Assembly: GCF_024700885.2 (NCBI RefSeq)
Contig: NZ_CP117016.1
Source: Escherichia coli
GTDB lineage: Bacteria > Pseudomonadota > Gammaproteobacteria > Enterobacterales > Enterobacteriaceae
DNA length: 64,000 bases
Direction: 5' to 3' (one strand)
Positions 1,423-18,875 of the stretch are shown piece by piece (positions within the stretch are counted from its first letter, which is position 1; the number at the start of each line of letters is the position of its first letter). The notes beneath the pieces are model-generated. The model had not been told where the DNA came from and did not search any database. It saw nothing but the letters and a program-made list of their open reading frames with translations. A program made the position numbers and the translations under genes.

Positions 1423-2533
1423 GCTTTCCTGCAGGTCTGCACCGGTTTAACAAACAAAACTTAACAGAGTCTGAAGGAGTAGTATTCCGTGCAAATAACC
1501 GAAGCGTTACTTTCAGAGCCGGGAGATATCTGGCGTTTTGTTCAGCAGGCGGTGGACCACTGGCCGCGTCTGCTGGCAGTCCACTTCACGCGTCATTCGA
1601 CCAGAGTAAATATTGATGATTACTAGATTCGTGTATTTTATCAGGCATTTTACTTGCGAATAAATCCCCTTGCTATCCAGCGAAACCACACAGGTAGCTA
1701 TTACCATATGTGGTAATACACTAGTTACAGGAAAAATATGCAAGTTCCGCAATACGTTGTGTGTTGCTCCTTAGCCAGGATCTTTTCTTCCATGCGAGAT
1801 ATGACAACAATTTTGAGGAAGGATGTTCGTAACTGGTAGAGTTACTACAACAAGCATGGGAGGCTCTGACTCTGACAGACATTGTACTGTGGAATGTTGT
1901 TACAGGTTGGGGCGGCAACCGTGCCAGGAGACCATGAGCCGTTCACGGCATTAAAGGCCACACTTCAGTCGTTTACATTCCCTATGGTGGCAGGCATCTT
2001 CCATTAAGGCGTCAGAGCGTTACCAACGTTATGTTGTCATGGCTCATCTTTCATAGTCGATGCTTATCTGGTGGCTGAAACTAGCCGCAGATAAAGAGTG
2101 TGAAGTTGATACCATGGAGTGGAGTGACGTGCAGGCAGGAGATTCGCTCTATGCAGGGTTGTGAGATGAATTCAAACCGGCTGGCAGCGCCAGTGATATT
2201 CGAAGATTCGTCCGGTTGTTACCCAGTATGCATTAAAAACCCAGACATTATGGACAATATAACGGCTTCTACAACAAGGAAGTGCCTGTTTACCATCCGG
2301 GTGTAATGACTCACCTTTGTGGGCTTTTGCCCGTCGCGCTCTTAACGTTGAAGACATTCTCTGCCTGCCGATTCAGGACTGCGACAAAAGCCATATCTGG
2401 CTACTGGTCAAGGATGACCAGCGTCTGGAGTAGGTGATAAGCCAAATAGATAAGCTGGAATATGTGGTGAAAGTGCAACGTAATCAGTCCAATCCGACGA
2501 TGTTTAACAAGATTGTGGTGTTTTTTCAGTAAG

Positions 2534-3319
2534 TCATTCGTCTTCTGAATCAGGTGTAATGATCTTTACAGAACCATTCCGGCAGTGCGTAACATAATCT
2601 GCCGGTAACGGACGATCGCTAATCAGAACGTCAAATGCAGAGATCGGTGCGAGGCTGGCAGAGGCCACTTCATCGAACAACGCGTGGCGGGCGAGCAAAA
2701 TTTTCCGTAGTCCACGGTTCATCGCTTTACGCTTAGTGGCAAGATCTTCAGGGTTAAACCAGCTGACGCCAAAGTGATTATGCACACCGCTGGCGGAAAT
2801 AAATATTTTTCGCGGATTGAGAGAGTCTAATGGCGAAGAGTTACTGGCATCGTAAAAAGCATCACTTCTGGCACGATACGTACCACCACAAAGTATTGCT
2901 GTTACATTAGGCTTTTCATTCAACGCAACAAAGACGCGATGTGAGTAACAGATACCGGTGAAGGTGATTGCATCCGGGATCATGCTTATAACGAGTGGTA
3001 TCTCCTGACCATTATCAAAGAAGATCAGATCATTTTCATTAACCATTCCGGCAGCCAGAATTGCAATAGGTAAGTCATCACGATGATTTTTTGGAACGTC
3101 ATGGATTACTGGCATGGATGGCGCGGGTTTATTCACCATTACAATATAGCCACCCAGTAGGGTCAGTGGCAGAGGTTCATCTTCCTGATGGAGATCGCGA
3201 CGAATAGTCATTACAGAAACTTCCAGCATTCGCGCTGCGTCTTTCAAATGGATTCTGTCGGTTTTCTTAAGCAGTTCCATCAAACGTCGGATACGCTCTT
3301 TTTGCTTCGTTTCCATCAA
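2534..3319 (-). CDS. deoQ: DeoR-family transcriptional regulator, deoxyribose operon regulator DeoQ-like
   Basis: 261-aa ORF with N-terminal DeoR-type HTH (…LEVSVMTIRRDL…) and sugar-binding C-domain; divergent from a kinase-permease-mutarotase operon as in the Salmonella/pathogenic E. coli deoQ-deoKPX locus. Confidence 0.65.
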   Translation of the reverse strand: MMETKQKERIRRLMELLKKTDRIHLKDAARMLEVSVMTIRRDLHQEDEPLPLTLLGGYIVMVNKPAPSMPVIHDVPKNHRDDLPIAILAAGMVNENDLIFFDNGQEIPLVISMIPDAITFTGICYSHRVFVALNEKPNVTAILCGGTYRARSDAFYDASNSSPLDSLNPRKIFISASGVHNHFGVSWFNPEDLATKRKAMNRGLRKILLARHALFDEVASASLAPISAFDVLISDRPLPADYVTHCRNGSVKIITPDSEDE

Positions 3320-3621
3320 CTCTCTCTCCGTAAGAATGTTATAAAAATAACATTTTGGCGTTAGTAAACATTGTTTTCATTACCATACTATACGACCGCC
3401 CCTTTGAAATGAAAAGGGTATAGGCTGCTGAGTTTTCGGTATTAATCCTGTTAGGTTGCTTATGATTAGATCGTGTTGGCCTGAGTGATGAGACTGGAAG
3501 TCTATTAAATAAACATCGGGTTGATGTGCTAATCGCGATCTCAGTCACAAATGATGCAAAAGTAACATGCTAATGTTATTTAAATACCATTGTTATGCGA
3601 AAGTTTATAAGAGGTAGTGAA

Positions 3622-4542
3622 ATGGACATTGCAGTTATTGGTTCCAATATGGTGGATCTCATTACTTACACTAATCAGATGCCTAAAGAAGGAGAAACTC
3701 TGGAAGCACCTGCCTTCAAAATCGGATGTGGTGGGAAAGGTGCTAATCAAGCGGTGGCGGCGGCTAAATTGAATTCAAAAGTCCTGATGCTGACTAAAGT
3801 AGGTGATGATATTTTTGCGGATAATACTATTCGTAATCTCGAATCATGGGGAATTAATACCACTTATGTTGAGAAGGTCCCCTGTACCAGCAGTGGTGTT
3901 GCACCGATCTTTGTTAATGCCAACTCGAGCAATAGTATATTAATAATTAAGGGAGCGAATAAATTTCTTTCCCCGGAAGATATCGATCGAGCTGCAGAAG
4001 ATCTGAAAAAATGCAAATTGATCGTTTTACAACTGGAAGTTCAACTGGAAACAGTTTACCACGCGATTGAGTTTGGTAAGAAAAATGGTATTGAAGTGTT
4101 ATTAAATCCGGCTCCGGCATTGCGTGAGTTAGATATGTCTTATGCCTGCAAATGTGATTTCTTTATCCCGAATGAAACAGAACTGGAAATATTAACCGGT
4201 ATGTCGGTTGATACTTATGATCATATTCGTTTGGCCGCACGTTCGTTAGTTGATAAAGGGCTGAACAATATTATTGTTACCATGAGCGAAAAAGGCGCAT
4301 TATGGATGACCCGCGATCAGGAAGTCCATGTTCCTGCATTCAAAGTAAATGCTGTTGATACTAGTGGCGCTGGTGACGCATTTATTGGTTGCTTTTCCCA
4401 TTATTATGTTCAAAGCGGTGATGTTGAAGCCGCTTTGAAAAAAGCCGCTCTCTTTGCCGCTTTCAGCGTCACAGGGAAAGGTACGCAATCATCTTATCCG
4501 AGTATTGAACAATTTAATGAATTTTTAACCTTAAACGAATAA
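3622..4542 (+). CDS. deoK: Deoxyribokinase (ribokinase/PfkB family)
   Basis: 306-aa product with PfkB motifs (N-terminal GG pair in …KIGCGGKGANQAV…, C-terminal DTSGAGDAF); SD-like GAGGTAG upstream of ATG 3622; first gene of deoKPX-like operon. Confidence 0.7.
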   Translation: MDIAVIGSNMVDLITYTNQMPKEGETLEAPAFKIGCGGKGANQAVAAAKLNSKVLMLTKVGDDIFADNTIRNLESWGINTTYVEKVPCTSSGVAPIFVNANSSNSILIIKGANKFLSPEDIDRAAEDLKKCKLIVLQLEVQLETVYHAIEFGKKNGIEVLLNPAPALRELDMSYACKCDFFIPNETELEILTGMSVDTYDHIRLAARSLVDKGLNNIIVTMSEKGALWMTRDQEVHVPAFKVNAVDTSGAGDAFIGCFSHYYVQSGDVEAALKKAALFAAFSVTGKGTQSSYPSIEQFNEFLTLNE

Positions 4543-4569
4543 TCATCCTGCACAGTTAAAGGTAGCACT

Positions 4570-5886
4570 ATGAACGATAAAAACATCATTCAGATGCCTG
4601 ATGGGTATCTGAATAAGACTCCCTTGTTCCAGTTTATTTTGTTATCGTGTTTATTCCCGCTATGGGGATGCGCAGCTGCATTAAATGACATATTAATCAC
4701 TCAATTCAAAAGTGTATTTTCGCTAAGTAACTTTGCTTCAGCATTGGTGCAGAGCGCATTTTATGGAGGTTATTTTTTAATTGCAATACCAGCATCCCTT
4801 GTGATTAAAAAGACCAGTTATAAGGTGGCAATTTTAATTGGCCTGACGCTGTATATTGGTGGTTGTACACTTTTTTTCCCTGCCTCGCATATGGCAACCT
4901 ACACTATGTTCCTTGCAGCTATTTTTGCGATTGCGATTGGCCTGAGTTTCCTTGAAACTGCAGCGAACACATACAGTTCAATGATCGGTCCAAAAGCCTA
5001 TGCCACATTGCGGCTCAATATCAGCCAGACCTTTTATCCGATTGGTGCTGCGTCTGGTATTTTATTGGGCAAATATCTGGTTTTCTCCGAGGGGGAAAGC
5101 CTTGAGAAGCAGATGTCCGGAATGAACGCCGAGCAAATTCACAACTTTAAGGTGCTGATGTTAGAGAACACCCTTGAACCGTATAAGTATATGATTATGA
5201 TTCTTGTTGTGGTCATGGTGTTGTTCCTTTTAACCCGCTTCCCAACCTGTAAAGTGGCACAGACAAGTCACCATAAATGCCCGTCAGCAATGGATACGCT
5301 GCGCTATCTGGCTAAAAATTCGCGCTTTCGTCGTGGTATTGTGGCTCAATTCCTTTATGTGGGTATGCAGGTCGCAGTATGGTCATTTACCATCCGTCTG
5401 GCACTGGAGTTGGGCGATATCAACGAACGTGATGCTTCAAACTTCATGGTCTACAGCTTTGCCTGCTTCTTTATTGGCAAGTTTATAGCCAACATCCTTA
5501 TGACACGTTTTAATCCGGAAAAAGTCCTAATTCTCTATTCCGTTATAGGGGCGCTGTTTCTGGCATATGTTGCACTGGCTCCAAGTTTCAGCGCGGTCTA
5601 TGTCGCCGTCCTGGTAAGTGTTTTGTTTGGCCCTTGCTGGGCGACGATCTATGCAGGAACACTGGATACAGTTGATAACCAACATACAGAAATGGCAGGA
5701 GCAGTCATTGTTATGGCTATTGTTGGCGCAGCGGTGGTTCCGGCAATTCAGGGGTATATTGCAGATATGTTCCACTCACTACAGCTTTCATTCCTGGTTT
5801 CTATGCTCTGTTTTGTCTATGTCGGTGTCTACTTCTGGCGTGAAAGCAAAGTACGTAATGCACTGGCTGAAGTCACAGAGTCCTGA
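4570..5886 (+). CDS. deoP: MFS sugar permease, FucP-like (deoxyribose permease DeoP-like)
   Basis: 438-aa polytopic membrane protein, hydrophobic throughout; position between deoK-like and deoX-like genes. Confidence 0.65.
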   Translation: MNDKNIIQMPDGYLNKTPLFQFILLSCLFPLWGCAAALNDILITQFKSVFSLSNFASALVQSAFYGGYFLIAIPASLVIKKTSYKVAILIGLTLYIGGCTLFFPASHMATYTMFLAAIFAIAIGLSFLETAANTYSSMIGPKAYATLRLNISQTFYPIGAASGILLGKYLVFSEGESLEKQMSGMNAEQIHNFKVLMLENTLEPYKYMIMILVVVMVLFLLTRFPTCKVAQTSHHKCPSAMDTLRYLAKNSRFRRGIVAQFLYVGMQVAVWSFTIRLALELGDINERDASNFMVYSFACFFIGKFIANILMTRFNPEKVLILYSVIGALFLAYVALAPSFSAVYVAVLVSVLFGPCWATIYAGTLDTVDNQHTEMAGAVIVMAIVGAAVVPAIQGYIADMFHSLQLSFLVSMLCFVYVGVYFWRESKVRNALAEVTES

Positions 5887-5897
5887 GGAGAATCGTT

Positions 5898-6911
5898 ATG
5901 AGTACGCGTATTTATTTGTGGCGGGCGCTTTTTGGCGAAAAACCTCGTATCTTGCTGGAAAATAGTGATTTTACTGTCACGTCTTTTCGCTATGACAGTG
6001 GTGTCGAGGGGCTTAAAATTGCAAACAGTCGTGGACATTTAATTATTCTTCCCTGGATGGGGCAGATGATTTGGGATGCGCAATTTGATGGACACAGTCT
6101 CACCATGTGCAATATGTTTCGCCAGCCTAAACCGGCGACAGAGGTGATAGAGACCTATGGCTGTTTTGCCTTTCATTCAGGTTTGCTGGCTAATGGCTGC
6201 CCATCTGCGGAAGATACTCATCTGCTACACGGTGAAATGGCCTGTGCCGCGATGGATGAAGCATGGATGGAATTAGAGGGAGATATGTTACGCCTTACCG
6301 GGCGTTACGAGTATGTAATGGGGTTCGGGCATCATTATCTGGCTCAGCCAACAGTGGTCCTTCACAAATCCTCTACATTGTTCGATATTAAGATGGCCGT
6401 AACCAATCTGGCTTCTGTAGATATGCCACTACAATATATGTGCCACATGAATTATGCATATATACCAAATGCTACGTTCAGCCAGAATATACCGGACGAA
6501 ATATTAAGGTTGCGTGAATCAGTACCTTCGCATGTTAATCCCACCGCCCAGTGGCTGGCGTTTAATCAACGAATTATGCAGGGAGAAGCCTCTCTGTCGA
6601 CGCTGAATCAACCGGAATTTTATGATCCAGAAATAGTCTTCTTTGCAGACAAACTGGACGCTTACACAGATCAGCCAGAGTTTCGCATGATCGCTCCCGA
6701 TGGCACTACGTTTGTTACTCGTTTCTCCAGTGCTGAACTAAATTATGTGACACGCTGGATCCTTTATAACGGCGAGCAACAGGTAGCCGCCTTTGCATTA
6801 CCAGCAACCTGTCGACCTGAGGGGTATCTTGCCGCGCAACGTAATGGCACGCTGATTCAGGTTGCACCGCAGCAAACGCGCACTTTTACAGTCACCACAG
6901 GTATTGAATAA
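5898..6911 (+). CDS. deoX: DeoX-like protein (putative deoxyribose mutarotase / aldose-epimerase-like)
   Basis: 337-aa ORF immediately after the permease, same strand, 11-bp spacing; operon context. Confidence 0.55.
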   Translation: MSTRIYLWRALFGEKPRILLENSDFTVTSFRYDSGVEGLKIANSRGHLIILPWMGQMIWDAQFDGHSLTMCNMFRQPKPATEVIETYGCFAFHSGLLANGCPSAEDTHLLHGEMACAAMDEAWMELEGDMLRLTGRYEYVMGFGHHYLAQPTVVLHKSSTLFDIKMAVTNLASVDMPLQYMCHMNYAYIPNATFSQNIPDEILRLRESVPSHVNPTAQWLAFNQRIMQGEASLSTLNQPEFYDPEIVFFADKLDAYTDQPEFRMIAPDGTTFVTRFSSAELNYVTRWILYNGEQQVAAFALPATCRPEGYLAAQRNGTLIQVAPQQTRTFTVTTGIE

Positions 6912-6934
6912 CCACATTTACGCGCTTATCGCTA

Positions 6935-7160
6935 AGGTAAGCGCCATTCTGCCTGCAGAAATCTACCTGCCGAAGTGATGCTTCAGTGGTAAGCGGCTCA
7001 CCAAAACCGTATTGATATTTACTGAGAGGCCAGCTCAACTATTTAGAGCAACAGATCGTGTACCCGGTTTGCCGGCCAGTCCTAGATATGCTCAATGACA
7101 TAACGCATCCATTTTTCTGGCTCCACATCGTTCAGACGGCATGTGCACAATACCAAAACG
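6935..7160 (-). mobile_element. IS66-family remnant (transposase C-terminal fragment plus terminal-repeat-like GTAAGCG motifs)
   Basis: Minus-strand translation gives …LAVLVLCTCRLNDVEPEKWMRYVIEHI*, closely paralleling the IS66 TnpC C-terminus seen at 28776-28982; two GGTAAGCG motifs at about 6937 and 6988. Confidence 0.4.
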
Positions 7161-7677: not shown

Positions 7678-7753
7678 TCTCCAACCCTTTAGCTCAGTGG
7701 TAAGAGGACTCATAATCGCTTGGTCGCTGGTTCAAATCCAGTAAGGGCCACCA
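7678..7753 (+). pseudogene. Degenerate tRNA-Ile(CAU)-like sequence (ileX/ileY-like), probably non-functional
   Basis: Recognisable D-arm (TAGCTCAGTGG), CAU-containing anticodon loop (CTCATAA), variable loop, T-arm (GCTGGTTCAAATCCAG) and CCA end, but the 5' strand of the anticodon stem is missing and two acceptor-stem positions are mismatched. Confidence 0.45.
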
Positions 7754-8633
7754 TCACACACTGCCACTGGCCCATTGCGCCATGCCCGGCACATATCAGT
7801 CACAGAGCCTTTCGGGGATAATTTGCAGAGTGGTCTGGCTGACTTTCTCTGTAGGCAGATCGTTCCCGCTTGATAGCTCATCCCCCAAAGAAACGTCACG
7901 ATATTTGGTATTTTCAAAATTCAAAAAGAAAACCCGCAGAGTGGCAACAGAGATTAAAAAGTTTGAGAAACGCGATCTGGCACAGGCGGTGATTGGTGTT
8001 GGAGTGATGGTAGATTTTATCAGCCGGATAATGTCGGTTCTGGCTGATAGCTGGGGTTGTTGGTGTGGTCTTCCTATTGATGAAAAAACAAGCAATTACT
8101 TGGCATATTATCTGTAACACTTTAAAACTGTTAAGAAGATCACAATTCATTATGTTTATTATTGTCTGGCCGGAGGGATATTTGTTAAAAAGTGCGCCGT
8201 GTGGTGAATCCCCCTGTGCGGTGGGGCGACTGGTGTACATAGCATTTATTATGTTATGAGCGAAGCCTACGCGGGTTCAGTGACACCGACTGAATTCACC
8301 GGGAGGCACCCGGCACCATGCAACAGACGCAAGTTAGGCTAAGCCTTATACCCCTGTAAGTTTTTTACAGGGTTTTTTTGTGCACAGAAAACCCCCAGCT
8401 AGGCTGGGGGGGCCGGAAAGCTTTCAGCTTTGAGCCAGTTATTAAAACTCTGAACCGGTTCCTGGCACGAATATCATTCCCGGCCTGCGCTTTGATTATC
8501 TCAGCGACTCCGGCGGGAACTTCAGCCGCAGTCTGAATCTTTCGCAGGAATTGGGCGATTATTTCAAAGTCAAAGCAGGGGTTGCCCGAACCTTTAAAGC
8601 CCCAAACTGTACTGACCCCAAAAAGTTGGACAG

Positions 8634-10004: not shown

Positions 10005-10966
10005 ATCAGGGGCTATTCCATTTCATCGTCCAACAAAATGGGTGCAGTACAAACCTGTATCAATCCAGTGAAGGCTATCTGCTCTACTCGAAAGGCAATG
10101 GCTGTCCAAAAGATATTACATCAGGCGGGTGCTACCTGATCGGTAATAAAGATCTCGATCCGGAAATCAGTGTCAATAAAGAAATTGGGCTGGAGTTCAC
10201 CTGGGAAGATTACCACGCAAGTGTGACCTACTTCCGCAATGATTACCAGAATAAGATCGTGGCCGGGGATAACGTTATCGGGCAAACCGCTTCAGGCGCA
10301 TATATCCTCAAGTGGCAGAATGGCGGGAAAGCTCTGGTGGACGGTATCGAAGCCAGTATGTCTTTCCCACTGGTGAAAGATCGTCTGAACTGGAATACCA
10401 ATGCCACATGGATGATCACTTCGGAGCAAAAAGACACCGGTAATCCTCTGTCGGTCATCCCGAAATATACTATTAATAACTCGCTTAACTGGATCATCAC
10501 CCAGGCGTTTTCTGCCAGCGTCAACTGGACGTTATATGGCAGACAAAAACCGCGTACTCATGCGGAAACCCGCAGTGAAGATACTGGCGGTCTGTCAAGT
10601 AAAGAGCTGGGCGCTTATTCACTGGTGGGGACGAACTTCAATTACGATATTAATAAAAATCTGCGTCTTAATGTCGGCGTCAGTAATATCCTCAATAAAC
10701 AGATCTTCCGATCTTCTGAAGGGGCGAATACCTATAACGAGCCAGGCCGGGCTTATTATGCCGGAGTTACCGCATCATTCTGATCGTAGTGTTTCAGGCG
10801 CACTGCCCGTGTAAAAGCGGGCAGTGTTTAGTGGCTTAACTCATGACAACCTGCTGTGTAATTTGCGTTTTCACCACTGATATCTAACAGTGCCTGGCGA
10901 AAGGAGGCATTAAACATTGGCCCGTGTCCCAGGTTGGGGAAATCCCAAAATACGGCATTGACGCCT

Positions 10967-11785
10967 TTATCTTTCAGTATAGTGAGGGGGGGGATAAATT
11001 TTCGACAGCACCCCGACAGCATGCGTTTCCCGGTTATCACCCTGTGTCGCCGAGCCTTCCATTATCGCCAGGTGTTTGGCGAAGAATTGCAGAGGCTCAA
11101 CCGCCGTAACGCGGCTTAGCAAAGCATCATAACCTCTGCCCAACGACGGGCTGGCGCTGTAGTACGACCGGAAGTAAGAGGAGGACAGCCAGGAATCCAG
11201 CACGAAGAGGCCGCCGTAGGAGTGCCCCCATAAGCCGCGGCGTTGCCGATCGATATTCAGTCCCTGTTCCACTTTTGGGGCAATACGCGTTTCCAGTAAC
11301 TGGCGGAAGTTGTTGCTGCCACCACTCTTACGGCTAAAACGCCCTGAGTGGAGATCTGTTTTTCTGCTTTCTGTTGCTGGCATATAGTCGTAAGCCCTGC
11401 TGTTGAGATCGAAAGGGAGGTTGGTCTGATACCCGACAGCCACGATCACTGGCGGTGTTTTTTCTGACAATTGTTTGAGCAGTTCGTCATCCAGGCGGTC
11501 CATAACTGCGTTACCGTCAAGCATATATAAAATCGGGTAACCCGATGCCGGTGCGGTTGTATTCGGCACGGCCGTCCATACCCGATAATGGCGTGTGCCA
11601 TCGACAGAGTCGAAAGAGGTGGCGCTGAAATGGTAAAACACGGAGCCTTTATCGGCTATATTCGGCCCCAGTGGCCGCATATCCGGCTTCGCATAAACTT
11701 GCGCACTACAGATAAGGGTGAGGCAAGAAAGATGAAAGAAAATCGCTTTATGCGGGCGTGTTGAGCGATACTCGCGGGCATACAT
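10967..11785 (-). CDS. iroE: Salmochelin periplasmic esterase IroE-like (alpha/beta hydrolase)
   Basis: ORF with signal-like N-terminus and GHSYGG serine-hydrolase motif; between iroD-like gene and convergent iroN; real start may lie upstream of first ATG. Confidence 0.6.
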   Translation of the reverse strand: MYAREYRSTRPHKAIFFHLSCLTLICSAQVYAKPDMRPLGPNIADKGSVFYHFSATSFDSVDGTRHYRVWTAVPNTTAPASGYPILYMLDGNAVMDRLDDELLKQLSEKTPPVIVAVGYQTNLPFDLNSRAYDYMPATESRKTDLHSGRFSRKSGGSNNFRQLLETRIAPKVEQGLNIDRQRRGLWGHSYGGLFVLDSWLSSSYFRSYYSASPSLGRGYDALLSRVTAVEPLQFFAKHLAIMEGSATQGDNRETHAVGVLSKIYPPPHYTER

Positions 11786-11869
11786 CTGATGATTATTCCT
11801 TTTCCGCAGGTGACAATTTGATTTATTCAGGAAGTCTGTACCGTTTCCTGAAAGTGTTTGTGGGTCAAC

Positions 11870-13099
11870 TCAACCCTGTAGTAAACCAATCCCGTCAATC
11901 AGTGCACCGCGCCACCATGCGTAATCGTGACCACCGGTGTAGATTGCGCAATGGCTTTCGACGCCAGCGGTAATCAGCCGCTGGTGAAGTTGCTGAACGT
12001 GAGGCACTGTCGAACCTTCCAGCGATCCCACGCACAGGCTGATACGCACGCCCTGCGGTGGGGCAGAAAGCAGATGCTCACTCACCCATGAGGTATCGGT
12101 TTCGCTGAACAAGCCTGGTCGACTGGTTCTTTCTGGCGTCCACCACATTGAAGGAGAGTGGCTGAGCACCAGACCGAACGTTTCCGGTGCGTAACGAGCC
12201 CCCATTAGCGCACTGATCCCGCCGAGGCTCTGCCCGGCCAGCACTGTGCGCGAACGGTCTGCCCACTGACGCTGCGGTTGTTCAGCGCGGATCATCGGCA
12301 GCAGATGTCCTGCGATATCCTTTATCAGCTTGCTGCGCCCGCCGAGTATCTCAGTGCGTTCATGTTCATTAATGTTGTCAATGCCCAGTACAGCCACGGG
12401 CACGATGCGCCTGTTATTTATGGCGGCGTCAATTGCCGCGCATACGCCAAGGTGATCAAACCAGGTTTCACCATCGGGCAGCACGACCAGCCCGAGGGGC
12501 TGAGAAATATCAATGTCCGGAATATAGAGCCGAACCTGGCGAGATTTCCCGGCGATAATGCGCATGGAGGTAAGCAGTTGTCCGGTGTGGAAGCCGCCGT
12601 TCCATTCCGACAGGGCGGGAGCTTTATCAAGTGTCAGCACTGATTCCTTTGCGTTTCCCCGAACGTTGATCTCCGGCATTTTGTTTAGCGGATCGGCCTT
12701 TCCGGCGAGGGTGGCAAAACGGCCTCCGGACAGTGCAATCGTCTCAGCCGTAGTGCCGGGGGGGATTTCCAGCAGCGAATAGGAGCCGCAGTAACTTGCG
12801 GGTAAACGCAGTGTCAGTGTCCAGATATCCGTTTCGGGAAGGGCGCTCATCATTCCTTTTTCTACGTGCTCTTTATCCGTCACCCGGTTCAGACGCTGAC
12901 AAACGCCCTGCAGAGGATGTCGGGCGCGCCACAGAAAGGTCACTTCTCGCTCATCTTCCGCTCCTTCGACTGGCGTCACAAGAGGAACATTCAGCGACTC
13001 AGCTTCGCGCCAGAAGTCAGTAAGGTTAGCAATGTGGCCCGCTGCCAGTTGGTTGCGCAGGCTGGCGATAGCAGAGGGATGTTGTTGCATGTTCAGCAT
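11870..13099 (-). CDS. iroD: Enterochelin/salmochelin esterase IroD-like (Fes family)
   Basis: 409-aa ORF with esterase motif GQSLGG; position between iroC remnant and iroE. Confidence 0.6.
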   Translation of the reverse strand: MLNMQQHPSAIASLRNQLAAGHIANLTDFWREAESLNVPLVTPVEGAEDEREVTFLWRARHPLQGVCQRLNRVTDKEHVEKGMMSALPETDIWTLTLRLPASYCGSYSLLEIPPGTTAETIALSGGRFATLAGKADPLNKMPEINVRGNAKESVLTLDKAPALSEWNGGFHTGQLLTSMRIIAGKSRQVRLYIPDIDISQPLGLVVLPDGETWFDHLGVCAAIDAAINNRRIVPVAVLGIDNINEHERTEILGGRSKLIKDIAGHLLPMIRAEQPQRQWADRSRTVLAGQSLGGISALMGARYAPETFGLVLSHSPSMWWTPERTSRPGLFSETDTSWVSEHLLSAPPQGVRISLCVGSLEGSTVPHVQQLHQRLITAGVESHCAIYTGGHDYAWWRGALIDGIGLLQG

Positions 13100-13202
13100 T
13101 CATACTCTTTAAAAATTAAGGATGTCAGTATAAATAATTAAAGCGGCTATTCACGGTACCGCCGCTTCTGACTGTGTTTTTAATACATTACGTGTCCAGT
13201 AA

Positions 13203-14396
13203 CTATCCCGGGGTTTCCTCCTTCATGTTGTGCTGGCGATGGAGCGCAGTACTGCTGACGTTGTCATGCCATAAGCGGGTATAGAGGCCGCCTGCAGATA
13301 ACAGCTGTTCGTGGGTTCCGTATTCCGCAAGTAACCCCTTATCAATAACGGCAATCAGATCGCAGCGTTGCGCGGTGGTCAGACGATGTGCAACAATCAG
13401 CGCCGAGTGCTTCCCGGCATGCACGACATCTGTTAACGATGACATCAGTCGTTCTTCGGATGTGCGATCCAGACATGACGTGGCTTCGTCGAGCAGCAGG
13501 ATGTGAGCATTCGCCAGTTGCGCGCGGGCCAGCGCAATCAACTGGCGCTGACCTGCGGACAGATCGGCTCCGCCGTTATTCACCGGTGTCCGGAATCCCT
13601 GCGGCAGATTGCACACCATCTCATACAGCCCTGCCCGCTGTGAGGCAATTTCAACGTCTTCATTGGTGGCGGATGCCGTGAATAACGAATGTTTTCTGCA
13701 ATATCACTACTAAACAGTGCTACATCCTGATCGACAAGCCCAATCTGGCGACGATACTCAGTGAGCGAGGCATCATCGAGCATTTGCACACCGATTCTGA
13801 TGTTGCCGTGCGTGGGGAAATACAACCCGGCAATCAGCTTAATCAGCGTCGACTTACCCGCACCGCTGCGACCGACGACCGCGACAACCATTCCCTCAGG
13901 GATCGTCAGGGTAAGTTTGTTCAGAGCTGGCTCGTGACTGGCGGGATAACTGAACGTGACCTCATCAAGATGCAGTGCACCGGTGACGGGGAGGAGCGAA
14001 GAGGACCCGAGGTCCTCAGTGCCTTCTGTCGCCAGTAGTTCATCAATATGTTTGCCGCTGGCTGTCGCCTGCTGCCAGGCGTTGACAATCCTTGATAACT
14101 GCTGCCAATCCTCGATCGAATAGAGCGGAATACGCAGTTGCGCGGAAGCGCTCCGATAACGCGCGCAGCGGGACGCCCTCCAGTTCCTGCTGATTATGCG
14201 ATTGCACGACGCGCAGGCCGGAGACTTTCTCCTGCAGGGTGCTTGTTGACTTTGCCCGTGCCTGTGCATAAGAAGGGGTACTGAGGCGGCGATAAATCAT
14301 GGTTGCCATTGCGGCCACTGGCACTGTGCTTAATGCCGTCAGCGCCAGGAACGGGTCGAGCCAGAACATGGTGGCGGCGATTGCGAACATTGTCAC
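13203..14396 (-). pseudogene. iroC: ABC exporter IroC, 3' remnant, frameshifted
   Basis: Three consecutive ORFs in alternating frames carrying Walker A (GRSGAGKST), ABC signature (LSAGQRQ) and Walker B (ILLLDEATS); only about 400 C-terminal codons of a much longer exporter; no iroB-like gene upstream. Confidence 0.55.
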
Positions 14397-14922
14397 CAGA
14401 CTGGTGGCCGCACCGGTAAGGCCGTTTTGCAGAAAGCGGGCGAGAGAGTCTACATCCCCATTTACCGTCTTATATCACTGGTGCTGGCAGACAGGAGTTT
14501 CATGAAACAATAACCCGAAATCACCAGTGTCGTTCAATGTGGCAACTGTTGGAAAAGGTTCGTCACTTTATGGTTACCGTCAGCCTATTCCCCGGTGGAA
14601 TGCATGGGCTAGCTAAAGTGTAGCAGTATTAGGATCTGTTATTTAGATTCGCAGGTGGGGGAGTGGGTAACGGATAATTCTACCGTAGCTAAACACAATC
14701 CGATAAATAAATAGCCCTATTGAGTTGTGGGTGGATGTAGTGATAATTGATGGATAAAAATATTATTTTTTTTGATGCTGATACCTTAATGGTTAATGAA
14801 CCAAATGGAATAATCTTAGTGTGTTGCTTTTTTATCTGACGTTAATTCCGCACTTGCTTATTATGCACAGAAAACATGGCGATAGTTTGCTAGGGTTATT
14901 TTGAGGAAAGTAAAGTATAATT

Positions 14923-15690
14923 ATGAAATGTATGAAATGGATGTGGATTGTGTCATCAAAAATACTTTTATCCCTTAGTTTTTTTTCATTTGCAAATGAA
15001 CAAGTGTTTGGAAATGTTGAAAACAATTCAAAGGTATTTTCTTTGCGTTTAGATACAACCCGTGTTGTCTATAACCAAGGTTCGTCTGGAGAAACATTGG
15101 CAGTCATTAATGAGCATGATTATCCGATATTAGTTCAGGCAGAGGTGCTGCTTGAAGACCAAAGAACTCCAGCGCCTTTTGTAATAACGCCACCACTGTT
15201 TCGGCTTGATGCTCTACAATCTAGTCGTCTTCGTATTATTCAAACTGGAGGTGATTTCCCGACAGATCGTGAAACTCTACAGTGGGTTTGTATAAAGGGG
15301 ATCCCGCCGAAAGTTGATGATAAGTGGGCTGAGGAAAATAGTAAGAATAAAGATGGTACAGATAAAGTAGCTCTAGACATACAAGTTTCTGTTAAAAGTT
15401 GCATTAAATTATTTGTCCGTCCGAAAATGGTGAAAGGTCATCCAGATGACGTTGCCGAAAATGTAAAATGGCAGAAGGTTGGTAATAGGTTGAAAGGAGT
15501 AAACCCAACACCGTTCTATATAAATCTTGCGGAATTGAAAGTGGGCGAAAAAGAAATACTGGAGCGTCATTATATAGCGCCATTTGGCTCTTATGAATAT
15601 CCTATCGATATGAATTGGAAGGGGGGGGTTACATGGAGAATAGTGACCGATTATGGTGGGATCAGTAACCAATTTGAAGCAAAGCTTTAA
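14923..15690 (+). CDS. Fimbrial periplasmic chaperone (PapD-like; AggD/AfaB class)
   Basis: 255-aa, signal peptide, chaperone-like fold sequence; first gene of chaperone-usher-invasin-pilin operon; very AT-rich. Confidence 0.65.
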   Translation: MKCMKWMWIVSSKILLSLSFFSFANEQVFGNVENNSKVFSLRLDTTRVVYNQGSSGETLAVINEHDYPILVQAEVLLEDQRTPAPFVITPPLFRLDALQSSRLRIIQTGGDFPTDRETLQWVCIKGIPPKVDDKWAEENSKNKDGTDKVALDIQVSVKSCIKLFVRPKMVKGHPDDVAENVKWQKVGNRLKGVNPTPFYINLAELKVGEKEILERHYIAPFGSYEYPIDMNWKGGVTWRIVTDYGGISNQFEAKL

Positions 15691-15708
15691 GCTTGATGAA
15701 TTTTTTTT

Positions 15709-18315
15709 GTGAATAAAATTATGAAAGAATACATCTGTAATGCCTCTCTATGCAGTACATCTTTGTGTACTCAAAAAAATAAGCTCTCATATACAACATT
15801 ATTTATAATAATTATATCTTCATTTTTTTATGTGGGGGATGTGGCAGCACGTTCGTATTCGTTTGACGCATCATTATTAAACGGAGGTGGTAAAGGGGTA
15901 GATTTGAGGTTACTTGAAAATGGAGGACAACTACCTGGTATCTATCCAGTTGATATTATTTTGAATGGTGCCCATGTTGAATCAAGAGATATGTTTTTTC
16001 ATACAGGGAGAGATATACATGGAAAAGATTATCTAAAGGCCTGTTTGACCAAGGAAATGTTAATACGTTATGGAGTAAAAGTTGAAGAATATCCCGGTCT
16101 TTTTCGAATTGATAGTGAAAAGGAACGAGGTAGAGATATTTGTGCTGACTTATCAGTAATACCTCAAGCTACAGAATATTATCGATTCCTATCACAGCAA
16201 TTAATAATTGGAATTCCGCAGGTGGCAATTCGTCCATCATTGACAGGAATTGCACCTGAAGTAATGTGGGATGATGGTATCGATGCATTTGTAGTGAATT
16301 GGCAGGCGGAAGCGAGTCGTTTTGACTATAGAGGCTACGGCAGGAATTCTTCAGATAATTTTTGGTCCAGTTTTGAACCGGGGATTAATATAGGCGCTTG
16401 GCGCCTCAGAAATCTAACTACTTGGAATAAATCATCTGGACAATCGGGTAAATGGGATAGTTCATATATACGGGCTGAACGTGGATTGAACAGCATTAGA
16501 AGTCGTTTGACTTTAGGTGAAGGCTATTCTCCTGCGGATATTTTTGACAGTGTTCCTTTCCGGGGAGGAATGTTAGGAACTGATGAATATATGATTCCAT
16601 ATAATCAGCGGGAGTTTGCGCCAGTGGTAAGAGGAATAGCTCGAACTCAAGCCCGAATTGAAGTACGTCAAAATGGGTATCTGATACATAGTCAGATAGT
16701 TGCACCGGGGGCTTTTGCTTTGAACGACCTTCCGGTGACAGGCTCCAGTGATGATTTACAAGTGGCAATTCTGGAATCAGATGGCACTATACAGTCCTTT
16801 AAAATACCCTTCACTTTGCCGGCTATTGCTCTACGTGAAGGATATCTAAAGTATAATGTAACCGTAGGGCAATATCGGCCATCGGATAGTGGGGGGGAAA
16901 AAGCATACTTGGCGCAATCGACTGTTATGTATGGTTTACCATGGGGGGTGACGGCATTTGCTGGAGTTCAGGGGGCCGAACATTATCGGGCTGGTGCACT
17001 GGGGTTAGGATTGTCGCTGGGGAATTTCGGTGCTATGTCACTAGATACCATTTATTCTCGAGGGCAACAAAAGGGATATGATTATGAAACAGGACAAACT
17101 TGGCGTATTCGTTACGACAAGTCCTTTGGACTGACAGGAACCAGTTTTGCGGCTGCGAGTTATCAATATTCAGGTGAAAATTATCACACATTAGCGGATG
17201 TTTTGAATACTTATAATAATGTCACTAGCCTCATAGACAGGAATTTTGATAACAAAACTCGTCGGATTACTATGAATATAAACCAGCCTCTTGGCCGTTG
17301 GGGGTATGTGGGGTTGAATGGAGGACGTGATGTATATCGTAGTAAACCAAATCAAGATTATATTGGAGCGTCTTATAGTACTTCATGGAAAAATATTTCC
17401 CTTTCATTAAATTGGTCACGGAATCTTAATCTTGGGAACTGCAACGGTAGACGTTTCTGTACAGAGGATAATTTCAACATGTGGATAAGTGTTCCTCTGC
17501 AGCGCTGGTGGGGGGGATATGATAATGATATCTATGCCACGGCACAGATGCAGCGTTCAACCAGACAAAACTCCAGTTATGAAGTAGGCTTGAGTGGACG
17601 CGCTTTTGAAAGAAAATTGAACTGGGATGTTAGTGAGCAGATAGTACCAGGTAGCAAATATGATGCAGATACAGGTCGGTTAAAGTTACGTTGGTCTGGA
17701 ACCTATGGCGAATTGGCGGGAATGTATAGTTATAATACTAACACCCGTCAGATGAACCTAGGGATGTCTGGAAGTATGGTTATGCATAGCGAAGGTCTAA
17801 CTTTCGGTCAGAGAACTGGAGACACGATAGGCTTGATTGTTGCTCCGGATGTAGCAGGGGCTTCAGTCAGCGGCTGGCCTGGTGTAAGTACAGGCTCCCG
17901 TGGATATGGGGTGGTAGGTTATGTATCACCATACCAGGAAAATGTCCTCACACTGGATCCGACGACTTTCCCTGAAAATGTAGAAGTCCCACAGACAGAT
18001 AGTCGTGTTGTTCCGACGAAAGGAGCAGTTGTCCGGGCTGAATTTAAGACCCGAGTGGGAAAACGTGCTGTGCTGAATCTGATCCGTAAAGATGGAACGC
18101 GTTTACCATTCGGTACAGTGATAACCTTGGAAGGAAAAGTATCCGGTTCTGTAGGGGTGGTAGATGACAAGGGGGCTGTGTATCTGAGTGGCCTGTCTGA
18201 AACAGGAAAACTAAAGGCACAGTGGGGAAGGAATAGTCAATGCTATGCAGACTACATTCTTCCAAAAGAAAAGGGGCCAGCCGGAGTTTTTTTAACAAAT
18301 GCGGTATGCATATGA
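15709..18315 (+). CDS. Fimbrial outer-membrane usher (AggC/AfaC class)
   Basis: 868-aa ORF typical usher size, C-terminal cysteine pair; operon context. Confidence 0.7.
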   Translation: MNKIMKEYICNASLCSTSLCTQKNKLSYTTLFIIIISSFFYVGDVAARSYSFDASLLNGGGKGVDLRLLENGGQLPGIYPVDIILNGAHVESRDMFFHTGRDIHGKDYLKACLTKEMLIRYGVKVEEYPGLFRIDSEKERGRDICADLSVIPQATEYYRFLSQQLIIGIPQVAIRPSLTGIAPEVMWDDGIDAFVVNWQAEASRFDYRGYGRNSSDNFWSSFEPGINIGAWRLRNLTTWNKSSGQSGKWDSSYIRAERGLNSIRSRLTLGEGYSPADIFDSVPFRGGMLGTDEYMIPYNQREFAPVVRGIARTQARIEVRQNGYLIHSQIVAPGAFALNDLPVTGSSDDLQVAILESDGTIQSFKIPFTLPAIALREGYLKYNVTVGQYRPSDSGGEKAYLAQSTVMYGLPWGVTAFAGVQGAEHYRAGALGLGLSLGNFGAMSLDTIYSRGQQKGYDYETGQTWRIRYDKSFGLTGTSFAAASYQYSGENYHTLADVLNTYNNVTSLIDRNFDNKTRRITMNINQPLGRWGYVGLNGGRDVYRSKPNQDYIGASYSTSWKNISLSLNWSRNLNLGNCNGRRFCTEDNFNMWISVPLQRWWGGYDNDIYATAQMQRSTRQNSSYEVGLSGRAFERKLNWDVSEQIVPGSKYDADTGRLKLRWSGTYGELAGMYSYNTNTRQMNLGMSGSMVMHSEGLTFGQRTGDTIGLIVAPDVAGASVSGWPGVSTGSRGYGVVGYVSPYQENVLTLDPTTFPENVEVPQTDSRVVPTKGAVVRAEFKTRVGKRAVLNLIRKDGTRLPFGTVITLEGKVSGSVGVVDDKGAVYLSGLSETGKLKAQWGRNSQCYADYILPKEKGPAGVFLTNAVCI

Positions 18316-18330
18316 CTGGAGTAAGAAATA

Positions 18331-18765
18331 ATGAGATACCGTATAATGTCTTTATCCTGTGTAGTGTTTCTGATGATAGGAGGACTGTCTCAGGCTGCAG
18401 AGATTACGTTAGTAAGCCACAGGAGTACGGGAAGTCAGTTACGTGATGGCATGATACTGGCGACAGGACGAATTATCTGTCGGGAAATACATACAGGGTT
18501 TCAGATATGGATGAATGATCGTCAAGAGGGAGGACATCCGAGGCATTATGTTATACAAAATAGTAAAGGAAACCAAGGCGAGTTACGGGTCAGGATAGGC
18601 GGTAATAGCTGGTTTTCTTCTTTGGATGAAGAATGGCAGGGGTGGATCAGGCTAGGAAAGGAAAAACAAGTTAATTTTGATGTGATAGTCGATGGAGAAC
18701 AGTATATTCCTCCAGGTAAATATATATTCTCAGTAAGTGGTAAATGTATGGCATCAGAGATATAA
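18331..18765 (+). CDS. AfaD/AggB-like invasin subunit
   Basis: 144-aa secreted protein with …ATGRIICREIHTGFQIWMNDRQ… region resembling AfaD-family invasins. Confidence 0.55.
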   Translation: MRYRIMSLSCVVFLMIGGLSQAAEITLVSHRSTGSQLRDGMILATGRIICREIHTGFQIWMNDRQEGGHPRHYVIQNSKGNQGELRVRIGGNSWFSSLDEEWQGWIRLGKEKQVNFDVIVDGEQYIPPGKYIFSVSGKCMASEI

Positions 18766-18875
18766 GAGTATGTGTCTACTGATACTATTTTGATTTTTAT
18801 AATATTTCATATTAATTGTATGGAAAATATTATTTCTATTTAAGTAGTAGTTAATGTTATTTAAGAGAGGTTTAT

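What the first reader, a model, noticed from the sequence alone, without database searches (positions are those of the whole stretch)
2534..6911. deoQ-deoKPX-type deoxyribose utilisation module on the island
A divergent DeoR regulator plus kinase, FucP-like permease and mutarotase-like gene have the organisation of the accessory deoxyribose catabolic locus reported in Salmonella and in pathogenic E. coli. On the same island as the adhesin and colonisation genes, this suggests a combined metabolic and adhesion fitness package.
Basis: partly seen in the sequence, partly recalled or inferred. Interest (0 to 1): 0.35.

Follow-up and report, generated by a model that had tools for sequence, protein, structure and literature searches.

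The report
Known E. coli deoxyribose-utilisation operon (deoQKPX)
This is the already described four-gene deoxyribose-utilisation module (deoQ and deoK-deoP-deoX) that about 29% of complete E. coli genomes carry on genomic islands; it is intact here and ordinary, although its flank suggests it comes from an Escherichia-type chromosome rather than from Salmonella as usually stated.

Summary

The proteins are 84/95/96/83% identical to those of Salmonella enterica. The Q<->KPX order is kept in about 70 of 80 species-representative loci. DeoK is the same RefSeq protein as in CFT073, a strain whose DeoK is in the literature. The whole module is present at 97.3-100% identity in 1593 of 5426 complete E. 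coli genomes. The window is an island beside tRNA-Ser that also carries afa-type adhesin genes and Ag43, like the published afa-8 and deoK island of AL862. This is already known.

- **Extent.** The captured block is window 2292-6944: a 3' fragment of ilvN, deoQKPX and the native terminator hairpin.
- **Origin.** The ilvN fragment is 91% identical to E. coli ilvN but 73-83% to other genera. The deo genes are as diverged from Salmonella as E. coli core genes are. This argues against recent transfer from Salmonella.
- **DeoX.** It has a confident mutarotase fold, but Leu sits where canonical mutarotases have the catalytic Glu.

RefSeq names the kinase rbsK and the permease fucP.

The parts
2292..2532 (+). 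ilvN' pseudogene: the 3' part of acetolactate synthase I small subunit (ilvN nt 50-291), with an internal stop and a frameshift. It is a hitch-hiking flank of the native ilvN-deoQ junction.
   Evidence: RefSeq annotates a pseudogene at 2306-2532. tblastn matches IlvN residues 29-96. It is 90.9% identical to K-12 ilvN but 73-83% to Citrobacter, Pseudocitrobacter, Raoultella, Kosakonia, Superficieibacter and Klebsiella indica. Its junction with the deoQ 3' end is the same as in Salmonella.
2534..3316 (-). deoQ: DeoR-family repressor of the module (260 aa).
   Evidence: HTH_DeoR plus DeoRC domains. The DeoR equivalog model scores 229 bits against a cutoff of 244, so it is a paralogue of DeoR, not DeoR itself. 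It is 84% identical to Salmonella DeoQ and divergent from deoK in all Enterobacteriaceae loci examined.
3335..3354 (.). Operator-like perfect palindrome AATGTTAT-AAAA-ATAACATT (TGTTA-N6-TAACA core) in the predicted deoQ leader.
   Evidence: the repeat finder I4 and D1. ATGTT...AACAT is invariant in 12 genera and subspecies. It has the same TGTTA-N6-TAACA form as the K-12 deoC-promoter sequence TGTTAGAATACTAACA, which I identify from memory as the DeoR operator.
3387..3415 (-). Predicted deoQ promoter (-35 TTTTCA at 3415-3410; -10 TATAGT at 3392-3387).
   Evidence: Consensus scan, 9 of 12 matches. ACTATAC at 3387-3393 is invariant across genera. This is inferred, with no transcript data.
3531..3552 (.). 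CRP-like site AATCGCGATCTCAGTCACAAAT, centred about 41 bp upstream of the predicted deoK transcription start.
   Evidence: TCGCGATC...TCACAAATG is invariant in the 12-sequence alignment. It matches the CRP consensus at 13 of 22 positions by my own count. Catabolite repression of deoKPX was reported for Salmonella (recalled, paper not held).
3550..3591 (.). Two tandem operator-like 20-mers (3550-3569 and 3572-3591, 22 bp apart) overlapping the predicted deoK -10 (GCTAAT at 3569-3574).
   Evidence: Direct-repeat family D1, 75% and 85% identical to the 3335-3354 copy. AACATG.TAATGTTA and CATTGT are invariant across genera.
3622..4542 (+). deoK: deoxyribokinase (306 aa, PfkB/ribokinase family).
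   Evidence: 95-97% identical to Salmonella and Citrobacter DeoK. It clusters with proteins named 'Deoxyribokinase'. Met10 aligns with ribose-binding Asn14 of E. coli RbsK, and IGSNMVDL is invariant in 79 of 79 orthologues. The GAGD catalytic Asp is at position 252. The protein accession is the same as in CFT073.
4570..5886 (+). deoP: FucP-like MFS (FHS family) permease, the presumed deoxyribose:H+ symporter (438 aa).
   Evidence: TIGR00885 scores 322 bits, but the E. coli FucP model NF007524 scores 284 against a cutoff of 427. It is 96% identical to Salmonella DeoP and lies in the same 90% cluster.
5898..6911 (+). deoX: mutarotase-fold (DUF4432) protein (337 aa), presumed deoxyribose anomer or ring-form converter.
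   Evidence: Pfam DUF4432. AF2 model with pLDDT 96.7. The Foldseek top hit is 3ty1, a putative aldose 1-epimerase (TM 0.82), followed by GalM structures. H93, H111 and H183 are invariant in the family, and Leu301 sits at the canonical Glu position.
6922..6944 (+). Stem-loop GCGCTTATC-GCTAA-GGTAAGCGC, the native ilvN/deoX terminator hairpin. Its U-tract has been replaced by island DNA.
   Evidence: -17.4 kcal/mol for 6909-6965, which includes a second small stem; z = -3.5. It differs by one loop base from the K-12 ilvN-uhpA and Salmonella deoX-uhpA terminator hairpin. Homology to Salmonella ends at 6944.

Best explanation
Window 2534-6911 is the E. coli deoK operon, the orthologue of the Salmonella deoQKPX regulon. 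It is a self-contained module that lets the cell use free 2-deoxy-D-ribose.

Proposed pathway:
1. DeoP, a FucP-like proton symporter, imports deoxyribose.
2. DeoX, a mutarotase-fold protein, probably speeds interconversion of ring or anomeric forms so that the kinase gets its substrate.
3. DeoK phosphorylates C5 to give deoxyribose-5-phosphate.
4. The core-genome aldolase DeoC, outside the window, cleaves this to glyceraldehyde-3-phosphate and acetaldehyde.

Proposed regulation: DeoQ represses deoKPX and itself through three TGTTA-N6-TAACA-type operators in the 305-bp divergent promoter region. A CRP-like site next to the deoK promoter makes expression subject to catabolite control.

What is shown here: gene content, orthology, conservation of the regulatory footprints, the DeoX fold, purifying selection and prevalence. 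What is inferred or taken from the literature: substrates, binding and phenotype.

The block on the island is window 2292-6944. It was cut out of a chromosome in which deoQKPX sat between ilvN and uhpA, and it carries an Escherichia-type ilvN fragment and the native terminator hairpin.
For: Layout and family hits.

Orthology and synteny: DeoQ/K/P/X are 84/95/96/83% identical to S. enterica, and the Q<->KPX order is conserved in about 70 of 80 species loci. Cluster names include 'Deoxyribokinase'.

Link to studied strains: 97.6% DNA identity and the identical DeoK protein in CFT073. PMC6452873 cites DeoK of AL862, 55989, CFT073 and EC185.

Kinase specificity: DeoK Met10 aligns with RbsK Asn14 and is invariant in 79 of 79 orthologues. 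Asn14 mutations were selected when K-12 adapted to deoxyribose.

Pathway: deoK followed by deoC is the known deoxyribose route (PMC6365646). Deleting deoK abolishes growth of Salmonella on deoxyribose (PMC13432705). deoC is present in 5423 of 5426 E. coli genomes.

Regulatory region: three 20-nt operator-like repeats, with phylogenetic footprints for these, a TATAGT -10 and a CRP-like site across 12 genera and subspecies.

DeoX fold.

Selection: pN/pS is 0.11-0.12 within E. coli, and dN is 0.02-0.10 against saturated dS versus Salmonella.

Prevalence: 1593 of 5426 genomes.

Literature on function in E. coli.
Against: No phenotype, transcript or binding data exist for this strain. RefSeq/PGAP names the genes rbsK and fucP, because generic TIGRFAM equivalog cutoffs are passed. 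DeoK is not strictly specific, since it also phosphorylates ribose. DeoX has Leu301 where 3ty1 and GalM have the catalytic Glu, so simple mutarotase chemistry is not assured. The operator motif alone is not enriched in the window: 3 matches were found against about 1 expected, and 7 of 100 shuffles reached 3. The primary papers (Tourneux 2000, Christensen 2003, Bernier-Febreau 2004, Martinez-Jehanne 2009) are not in the held library, so details from them are recalled or second-hand.
Confidence: 0.95

Rival explanations
1. The locus is a ribose and/or fucose utilisation cluster, as the RefSeq names imply (rbsK ribokinase, fucP fucose permease, aldose 1-epimerase), not a deoxyribose module.
For: TIGR02152 ribokinase scores 369 bits against a cutoff of 300, and TIGR00885 fucP scores 322 against 280. 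PGAP uses these names in every genome listed. Salmonella DeoK does phosphorylate ribose and can support growth on it.
Against: The E. coli-specific RbsK and FucP models are failed: 252 against a cutoff of 341, and 284 against 427. The proteins are 95-96% identical to Salmonella DeoK and DeoP, and synteny with deoQ and deoX is conserved. Met replaces the 2'-OH-binding Asn14 of RbsK. There are no fucose catabolic genes (fucI, fucK, fucA) nearby. Deletion of deoK abolishes growth on deoxyribose in Salmonella.
Confidence: 0.03
2. The module in E. coli was acquired recently by horizontal transfer from Salmonella enterica. This is the origin stated in the literature, as relayed by PMC5382810.
For: Gene order and content are the same as in Salmonella, and DeoK and DeoP are 95-96% identical at the protein level. 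K-12 lacks the module at the ilvN-uhpA site. The module lies on mobile islands. The statement itself is in PMC5382810.
Against: DNA identity to Salmonella is only 76-82%, with pS of 0.68-0.79. That is at least as diverged as the K-12 versus Salmonella flanking core genes ilvB, ilvN and uhpABC (80-86%, pS 0.53-0.76). Citrobacter and Pseudocitrobacter are equally close or closer. The attached ilvN fragment is 91% identical to E. coli ilvN and E. coli-like along its whole length, whereas K-12 ilvN is 80% identical to Salmonella ilvN. GC3 is 42.5% against 62-63% in Salmonella. Diversity within E. coli (pS about 0.07) implies long residence.
Confidence: 0.07
3. The module is a decaying island passenger that is no longer functional in this strain.
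For: Its surroundings are heavily degraded: pseudogenes of ilvN, uxaA and iroN/E/C, and IS fragments. The terminator has lost its U-tract. GC3 is unusually low.
Against: All four ORFs are intact with good ribosome-binding sites. The four proteins carry the same RefSeq accessions in strains 2013C-4538 and MLI114, and their exact sequences are seen on at least 1000 contigs each. pN/pS is 0.11-0.12 within E. coli. Promoter and operator footprints are conserved.
Confidence: 0.05

Closest known systems
Salmonella enterica deoQKPX regulon (Tourneux et al. 2000, J Bacteriol 182:869; Christensen et al. 2003, J Bacteriol 185:6042; papers not held, details recalled)
   Same: The four genes, their order and their orientation are the same. 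Protein identity is 83-96%. The divergent intergenic region has a similar length (305 bp against 324 bp), with conserved operator-like, CRP-like and -10 footprints. DeoK is 306 aa with Met10.
   Different: In Salmonella and many other Enterobacteriaceae the module is chromosomal, between ilvBN and uhpABC. Here it is on a tRNA-Ser-associated island with only a 241-bp ilvN stub and no uhpA. DNA identity is only 76-82%, and GC3 is 42.5% against about 62%.
E. coli deoK operon of pathogenicity islands (AL862 island with afa-8; LAC PAI; NCTC 86 ROD 40; CFT073, 55989) - Bernier-Febreau et al. 2004; Martinez-Jehanne et al. 2009
   Same: The module is the same, at 97.3-100% DNA identity in 1593 complete genomes including CFT073. 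The ilvN stub is present too. It is linked to afa-type adhesin genes, as on the AL862 island.
   Different: The described islands are at pheV. This island abuts tRNA-Ser(GGA) next to ghrA/csg. The vpe PTS operon that follows deoX in CFT073 and EC06 is absent here.
E. coli rbs system (RbsK ribokinase, RbsD pyranase) and the DeoR/deoCABD regulon
   Same: DeoK shares the PfkB ribokinase fold, the catalytic GAGD Asp and the NETE motif. DeoQ is the nearest paralogue of DeoR and uses TGTTA-N6-TAACA-type sites, like the K-12 deoC-promoter sequence TGTTAGAATACTAACA, which I identify from memory as the DeoR operator. The DeoX step plausibly parallels the RbsD step.
   Different: DeoK has Met where RbsK has the 2'-OH-binding Asn14. 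It fails the RbsK-specific model. DeoX has a mutarotase beta-sandwich fold, not the RbsD fold. Uptake is by an MFS symporter, not an ABC system.
Galactose mutarotase / aldose 1-epimerase family (GalM; PDB 1l7j, 3ty1)
   Same: The DeoX model superposes on 3ty1 (TM 0.82) and on GalM structures (E from 1e-9 to 1e-11). The two catalytic-site His motifs are kept: LHG at H111, matching GalM H104, and H-x-N/Y at H183, matching GalM H175.
   Different: There is no significant sequence match to Pfam Aldose_epim or to E. coli GalM. Position 301 is Leu in 50 of 60 family members, where 3ty1 (IEPGT) and GalM (ALESE, E309) have the catalytic Glu.

Membership tests
deoQKPX deoxyribose-utilisation module (Salmonella / E. 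coli deoK operon) | Four genes: a DeoR-family regulator transcribed divergently from kinase, permease and deoX. | tested here: met
   ORFs at 2534-3316 (-), 3622-4542, 4570-5886 and 5898-6911 (+). The same layout is seen in Salmonella L086 and L028 and in about 70 of 80 loci.
deoQKPX deoxyribose-utilisation module (Salmonella / E. coli deoK operon) | The kinase is orthologous to Salmonella deoxyribokinase DeoK (306 aa), not to RbsK. | tested here: met
   95% identity over 306 aa to S. enterica. It lies in a 90% cluster with proteins named 'Deoxyribokinase'. The RbsK-specific model NF008353 scores 252 against a cutoff of 341. The alignment to E. coli RbsK scores 170 bits.
deoQKPX deoxyribose-utilisation module (Salmonella / E. 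coli deoK operon) | Met10 in place of RbsK Asn14. This is the specificity determinant mutated by Tourneux et al. 2000 (recalled). | tested here: met
   The alignment pairs DeoK M10 with RbsK N14. The motif is invariant in 79 of 79 orthologues. The role of Asn14 in ribose binding and in adaptation to deoxyribose is described in PMC6452873.
deoQKPX deoxyribose-utilisation module (Salmonella / E. coli deoK operon) | A divergent promoter region of about 300 bp with three DeoQ operators and CRP control (Christensen et al. 2003, recalled). | tested here: inconclusive
   Three operator-like 20-mers and a CRP-like site are present and conserved across genera. Binding and transcription starts cannot be tested here.
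deoQKPX deoxyribose-utilisation module (Salmonella / E. coli deoK operon) | Confers growth on 2-deoxy-D-ribose. Kinase activity on deoxyribose. | not testable with these tools
   Literature only.
deoQKPX deoxyribose-utilisation module (Salmonella / E. coli deoK operon) | The downstream aldolase DeoC is available in the host. | tested here: met
   deoC lies outside the window, but it is present in 5423 of 5426 complete E. coli genomes.
E. coli island-borne deoK operon (as in CFT073 and AL862) | Near-identity to the module of strains in which it was described. | tested here: met
   97.6% DNA identity to CFT073, with the same DeoK accession WP_000350265.1.
Aldose 1-epimerase (galactose mutarotase) family, for DeoX | Mutarotase beta-sandwich fold. 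| tested here: met
   AF2 pLDDT 96.7. Foldseek hits 3ty1 with TM 0.82 and E = 7e-16, and GalM structures with E about 1e-9 to 1e-11.
Aldose 1-epimerase (galactose mutarotase) family, for DeoX | Catalytic His/His/Glu set (E. coli GalM H104, H175, E309). | tested here: inconclusive
   H111 and H183 are conserved in matching motifs. The Glu position, mapped through the 3ty1 alignment and motif comparison, is Leu301 in 50 of 60 members. A direct profile alignment to GalM was not significant, and no residue-level structural superposition was available.
L-fucose:H+ symporter FucP (RefSeq name for DeoP) | Passes the E. coli FucP equivalog model and lies in a fuc regulon context. | tested here: not met
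   NF007524 scores 284 bits against a cutoff of 427. There are no fuc genes nearby. DeoP is a member of the FHS/FucP family only.

The most novel reading that the evidence does not exclude
The island-borne E. coli deoQKPX is not an import from Salmonella. It is a relic of a native Escherichia-lineage ilvN-deoQKPX-uhpA locus, lost from its chromosomal site and surviving only as a 4.65-kb excerpt (ilvN stub to terminator hairpin) that moves between tRNA-associated islands. Separately, DeoX would be a non-canonical mutarotase-fold enzyme that lacks the usual catalytic Glu and acts as the deoxyribose pyranose/furanose converter, the counterpart of RbsD.
Probability: 0.4. Interest if true: 0.35.

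Novelty: already known. Interest (0 to 1): 0.15.

Why it matters
The module is a documented fitness factor. It allows growth on deoxyribose released from DNA and improves gut colonisation by pathogenic E. coli, so recognising it helps in reading island content.

Practical value of this check:
- It shows that RefSeq systematically mislabels the genes as rbsK and fucP, which hides the trait in automated metabolic reconstructions.
- It defines the true captured unit as window 2292-6944.
- It gives sequence evidence that the accepted 'from Salmonella' origin is probably wrong.
- It flags DeoX (DUF4432) as a still uncharacterised enzyme with an unusual active site.

None of this changes the main picture.

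Tried and rejected
- **Primary papers.** Look-ups of the primary papers by PMC id failed (PMC517565, PMC2663165 and PMC94358, plus PMC225019, which was my guess for Christensen 2003). Details of Met10 mutagenesis, the three operators and CRP control are therefore recalled, not read.
- **DeoX against solved structures.** phmmer of DeoX against PDB sequences found nothing. Only the family profile reached 3ty1.
- **DeoX against GalM.** hhalign of the DeoX profile against single-sequence E. coli GalM was not significant. The mapping of the catalytic Glu therefore rests on the 3ty1 alignment and motif comparison.
- **Literature on deoX.** A search for 'deoX' was swamped by 'deoxy...' words.
- **Operator motif.** The pattern ATGTT-N(4-10)-AACAT is not significantly enriched in the window, so the operator argument rests on cross-genus conservation.
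- **Terminator scan.** The simple scan found no canonical terminator after deoX. The hairpin has lost its U-tract.
- **Native site in E. coli.** I looked for an E. coli genome with the module at the native ilvBN-uhp site. Of the divergent alleles, FMU073332 and EC06 were checked; like CFT073 and the window strain, they are island-borne with an ilvN stub. This was not exhaustive.
- **Start codons rejected.** The ATG at 3595 for deoK and the TTG at 3319 for deoQ were rejected on ribosome-binding-site and homology grounds.

Full report
**1. What is in the sequence**

The window differs at only 3 of 64000 positions from E. coli MLI114, NZ_CP117013.1 3184397-3248396 reverse complement. That RefSeq annotation therefore maps directly onto the window.

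The four genes are:
- deoQ, 2534-3316 (-), 260 aa
- deoK, 3622-4542 (+), 306 aa
- deoP, 4570-5886 (+), 438 aa
- deoX, 5898-6911 (+), 337 aa

The mechanical ORF list offers a TTG at 3319 for deoQ and an ATG at 3595 for deoK. The annotated starts are better supported. GGAGAGAGAG precedes the ATG at 3316, and AAGAGG lies 7 nt before the ATG at 3622. Homologues align from residue 1 of the 306-aa form.

**2. Family assignments**

- DeoQ has HTH_DeoR and DeoRC domains. Its best NCBIfam hit is the DeoR equivalog at 229 bits, below the cutoff of 244. It is the nearest paralogue of DeoR, not DeoR itself.
- DeoK is a PfkB kinase. It passes the generic ribokinase TIGRFAM (369 bits) but fails the E. coli RbsK model (252 against 341).
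- DeoP passes the generic fucP TIGRFAM (322 bits) but fails the E. coli FucP model (284 against 427).
- DeoX matches only Pfam DUF4432.

These generic hits explain why PGAP labels the genes 'rbsK' and 'fucP' in every E. coli genome listed.

**3. Orthology with Salmonella deoQKPX**

A scan of one genome per species returned 80 loci. tblastn of the four proteins shows the Q<->K-P-X layout in about 70 of them. These cover the Enterobacteriaceae, Providencia, Edwardsiella, Aeromonas and the Pasteurellaceae. Bacillus methanolicus has the order P-X-K.

Identity to S. enterica subsp. diarizonae is Q 84%, K 95%, P 96% and X 83%. A subsp. enterica contig has the same four genes. DeoK and DeoP share 90%-identity clusters with Salmonella and Citrobacter proteins, some of which sources name 'Deoxyribokinase'.

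In the alignment to E. coli RbsK (PDB 1gqt/1rkd), DeoK Met10 sits opposite RbsK Asn14. Asn14 is a ribose-binding residue, and it was mutated (N14D, N14S) when K-12 was evolved to grow on deoxyribose (PMC6452873). From memory, Tourneux et al. 2000 showed that M10N shifts DeoK towards ribose. The motif IGSNMVDL is invariant in 79 of 79 orthologues.

**4. It is the known E. coli deoK operon**

The module is present over at least 80% of its length in 1593 of 5426 complete E. coli genomes (29%). Identity is always 97.3-100%, and nearly all copies are chromosomal.

CFT073 carries it at 97.6% identity with the identical DeoK protein, WP_000350265.1. CFT073, AL862, 55989 and EC185 are the strains whose DeoK sequences were reported by Bernier-Febreau et al. 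2004, according to PMC6452873.

Reviews and genome papers describe the deoK operon on pathogenicity islands. It occurs together with afa-8 on the AL862 island and next to vpe on the LAC PAI and on NCTC 86 ROD 40. They state that it allows use of deoxyribose and promotes colonisation of the mouse intestine (PMC7545054, PMC6455142, PMC5382810).

The window's island also carries other colonisation genes:
- an afa-type chaperone, usher and AfaD (14932-18765)
- truncated iro genes
- Ag43 (47138-49984)

It ends at tRNA-Ser(GGA), 58468-58555.

**5. How it most likely works**

The known route is deoxyribose, then DeoK, then deoxyribose-5-phosphate, then DeoC, giving glyceraldehyde-3-phosphate and acetaldehyde (PMC6365646). 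Deleting deoK abolishes growth of Salmonella on deoxyribose (PMC13432705). deoC lies outside the window but is in 5423 of 5426 E. coli genomes.

The 305-bp intergenic region carries three copies of a 20-nt operator-like repeat:
- a perfect palindrome at 3335-3354, AATGTTAT-AAAA-ATAACATT
- two tandem copies at 3550-3569 and 3572-3591

Each has a TGTTA-N6-TAACA-type core. That is the form of the sequence TGTTAGAATACTAACA upstream of K-12 deoC, which I identify from memory as the DeoR operator.

An alignment of 12 genera and subspecies shows that several blocks are invariant while the centre of the region is free to vary:
- these operator-like blocks
- an ACTATAC block (the -10 TATAGT of a leftward promoter)
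- a CRP-like AATCGCGATC-N4-GTCACAAAT block at 3531-3552

The two tandem sites overlap the likely deoK -10 (GCTAAT, 3569-3574).

This fits what I recall of Christensen et al. 2003: divergent promoters, three DeoQ operators, repression by DeoQ and DeoR, and catabolite repression of deoKPX. Binding and transcription starts are inferred, not shown. The bare motif is not enriched in the window.

**6. DeoX**

A 60-sequence alignment gave an AlphaFold model with mean pLDDT 96.7. Foldseek places it in the galactose-mutarotase fold. The top hit is 3ty1, a putative aldose 1-epimerase, with TM 0.82 and E = 7e-16. B. subtilis, L. lactis, human and yeast mutarotases follow. The family profile hits 3ty1 by sequence at E = 1e-17.

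Two His motifs correspond to GalM H104 and H175: LHG at H111 and H-x-N at H183. Both are invariant. Where 3ty1 has IEPGT and E. coli GalM has ALESE (E309), DeoX has ALPAT. This position is Leu in 50 of 60 members.

'Mutarotase-like' is therefore right for the fold, but the canonical catalytic base seems absent. My inference is that DeoX converts deoxyribose ring or anomeric forms for the kinase, as RbsD does for ribose, using a different base. E113 and E245 are nearly invariant and are candidates. This is untested.

**7. Origin: a correction to the usual statement**

In Salmonella, Citrobacter, Raoultella, Leclercia and others, the module lies between ilvBN and uhpABC. K-12 has ilvN directly next to uhpA. 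The sequence after the K-12 ilvN stop equals the sequence after the Salmonella deoX stop, so the two differ by a clean 4.4-kb indel.

In the window, homology to those chromosomes runs from 2292 to 6944. This block consists of the last 241 bp of ilvN (now a pseudogene), deoQKPX and the native terminator hairpin at 6922-6944. The hairpin region has z = -3.5. Its U-tract has been replaced by island DNA.

The ilvN stub is 90.9% identical to K-12 ilvN, compared with 73-83% to six other genera. It is E. coli-like along its whole length, up to a junction with deoQ identical to that in Salmonella.

The deo genes are 76-82% identical to Salmonella at the DNA level, with pS of 0.68-0.79. They are thus at least as diverged as the flanking core genes of K-12 and Salmonella (80-86%, pS 0.53-0.76). 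Citrobacter and Pseudocitrobacter are as close or closer.

Within E. coli, pS is about 0.07 and pN/pS is 0.11-0.12. This indicates long residence under purifying selection.

CFT073, EC06 and FMU073332 all keep an ilvN stub, which is longer (277 nt) in FMU073332.

A recent transfer from Salmonella, as relayed in PMC5382810, is therefore unlikely. The simplest reading is capture from an Escherichia-type chromosome that had the native arrangement.

One feature is unexplained. GC3 is 42.5% in the E. coli module but 50-76% in all other Enterobacteriaceae versions examined.

**8. Verdict**

The system is already known.

DeoK also phosphorylates ribose, and over-expressed RbsK supports growth on deoxyribose, so 'ribokinase activity' would not refute the reading. 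Loss of growth on deoxyribose in a deoK mutant is the proper test.

Interest is low. The origin argument and the atypical DeoX active site are small additions.

Noticed in passing
window 7683-7756 (+): A degenerate tRNA-like element about 770 bp downstream of deoX. Rfam tRNA scores 30.7 bits against a gathering score of 29. It has a CAT anticodon loop and ends in GGGCCACCA. ARAGORN does not call it. From memory it resembles tRNA-Ile2 (ileX/ileY) with a deletion in the D-arm and anticodon stem, so it may be a relic of an attachment site.
   Followed up: partly
window 8169-8476 (+): A strong match to the sRNA family STnc100 (136 bits) at 8169-8383. It is followed immediately by a sub-threshold STnc490-like match (52 bits against a gathering score of 56) at 8390-8476, just before an IS150 copy.
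   Followed up: no
window 58468-58555 and flanks; L003, L005: The island abuts tRNA-Ser(GGA) next to ghrA/csg. Its tRNA-proximal end is the CbtA/YeeU/DUF4942 end rather than an integrase. In strain 2013C-4538 a similar island with the identical deo module abuts the other tRNA-Ser(GGA), next to infA/aat/cydCD. This suggests exchange or inversion between the two tRNA-Ser sites.
   Followed up: no
window ~34836-43455 (-): A type I restriction-modification system (hsdM, hsdS, hsdR) with a darT/darG toxin-antitoxin pair between hsdS and hsdR, and an M48 peptidase gene after hsdR at about 34120-34836.
   Followed up: no
window 10052-19391: Truncated salmochelin genes (iroN, iroE and iroC as pseudogenes, iroD intact) sit next to an afa-type chaperone, usher and AfaD cluster and a small downstream ORF (18936-19391). 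IS630 and IS150 remnants surround them. The co-occurrence of afa-type genes and deoK resembles the published AL862 island.
   Followed up: partly
window 3622-5886; all E. coli RefSeq genomes listed: PGAP names DeoK 'rbsK: ribokinase' and DeoP 'fucP: L-fucose:H+ symporter permease', because generic TIGRFAM equivalog cutoffs are passed. This systematic mis-annotation affects roughly 1600 complete genomes.
   Followed up: yes
window 3622-4542 (DeoK): DeoK scores higher against mammalian ribokinases (PDB 6wjz, 5byc, 2fv7; 216 bits) than against E. coli RbsK (170 bits). The mammalian enzymes also have Met (GSCMTD) at the position of RbsK Asn14.
   Followed up: no
window 2534-6911 vs L089 (CFT073): Within E. 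coli the module is mosaic. Between the window and CFT073, deoK has pS of 0.010, while deoQ, deoP and deoX have pS of 0.08-0.11. GC3 of the module (42.5%) is far below that of every other Enterobacteriaceae version (50-76%).
   Followed up: partly
window 27235-27314 (-) and 28751-28830 (+): Two group II intron domain matches in inverted orientation (Rfam RF00029, 54 and 51 bits) flank an IS481-family transposase gene. A maturase-domain ORF overlaps the first match.
   Followed up: no
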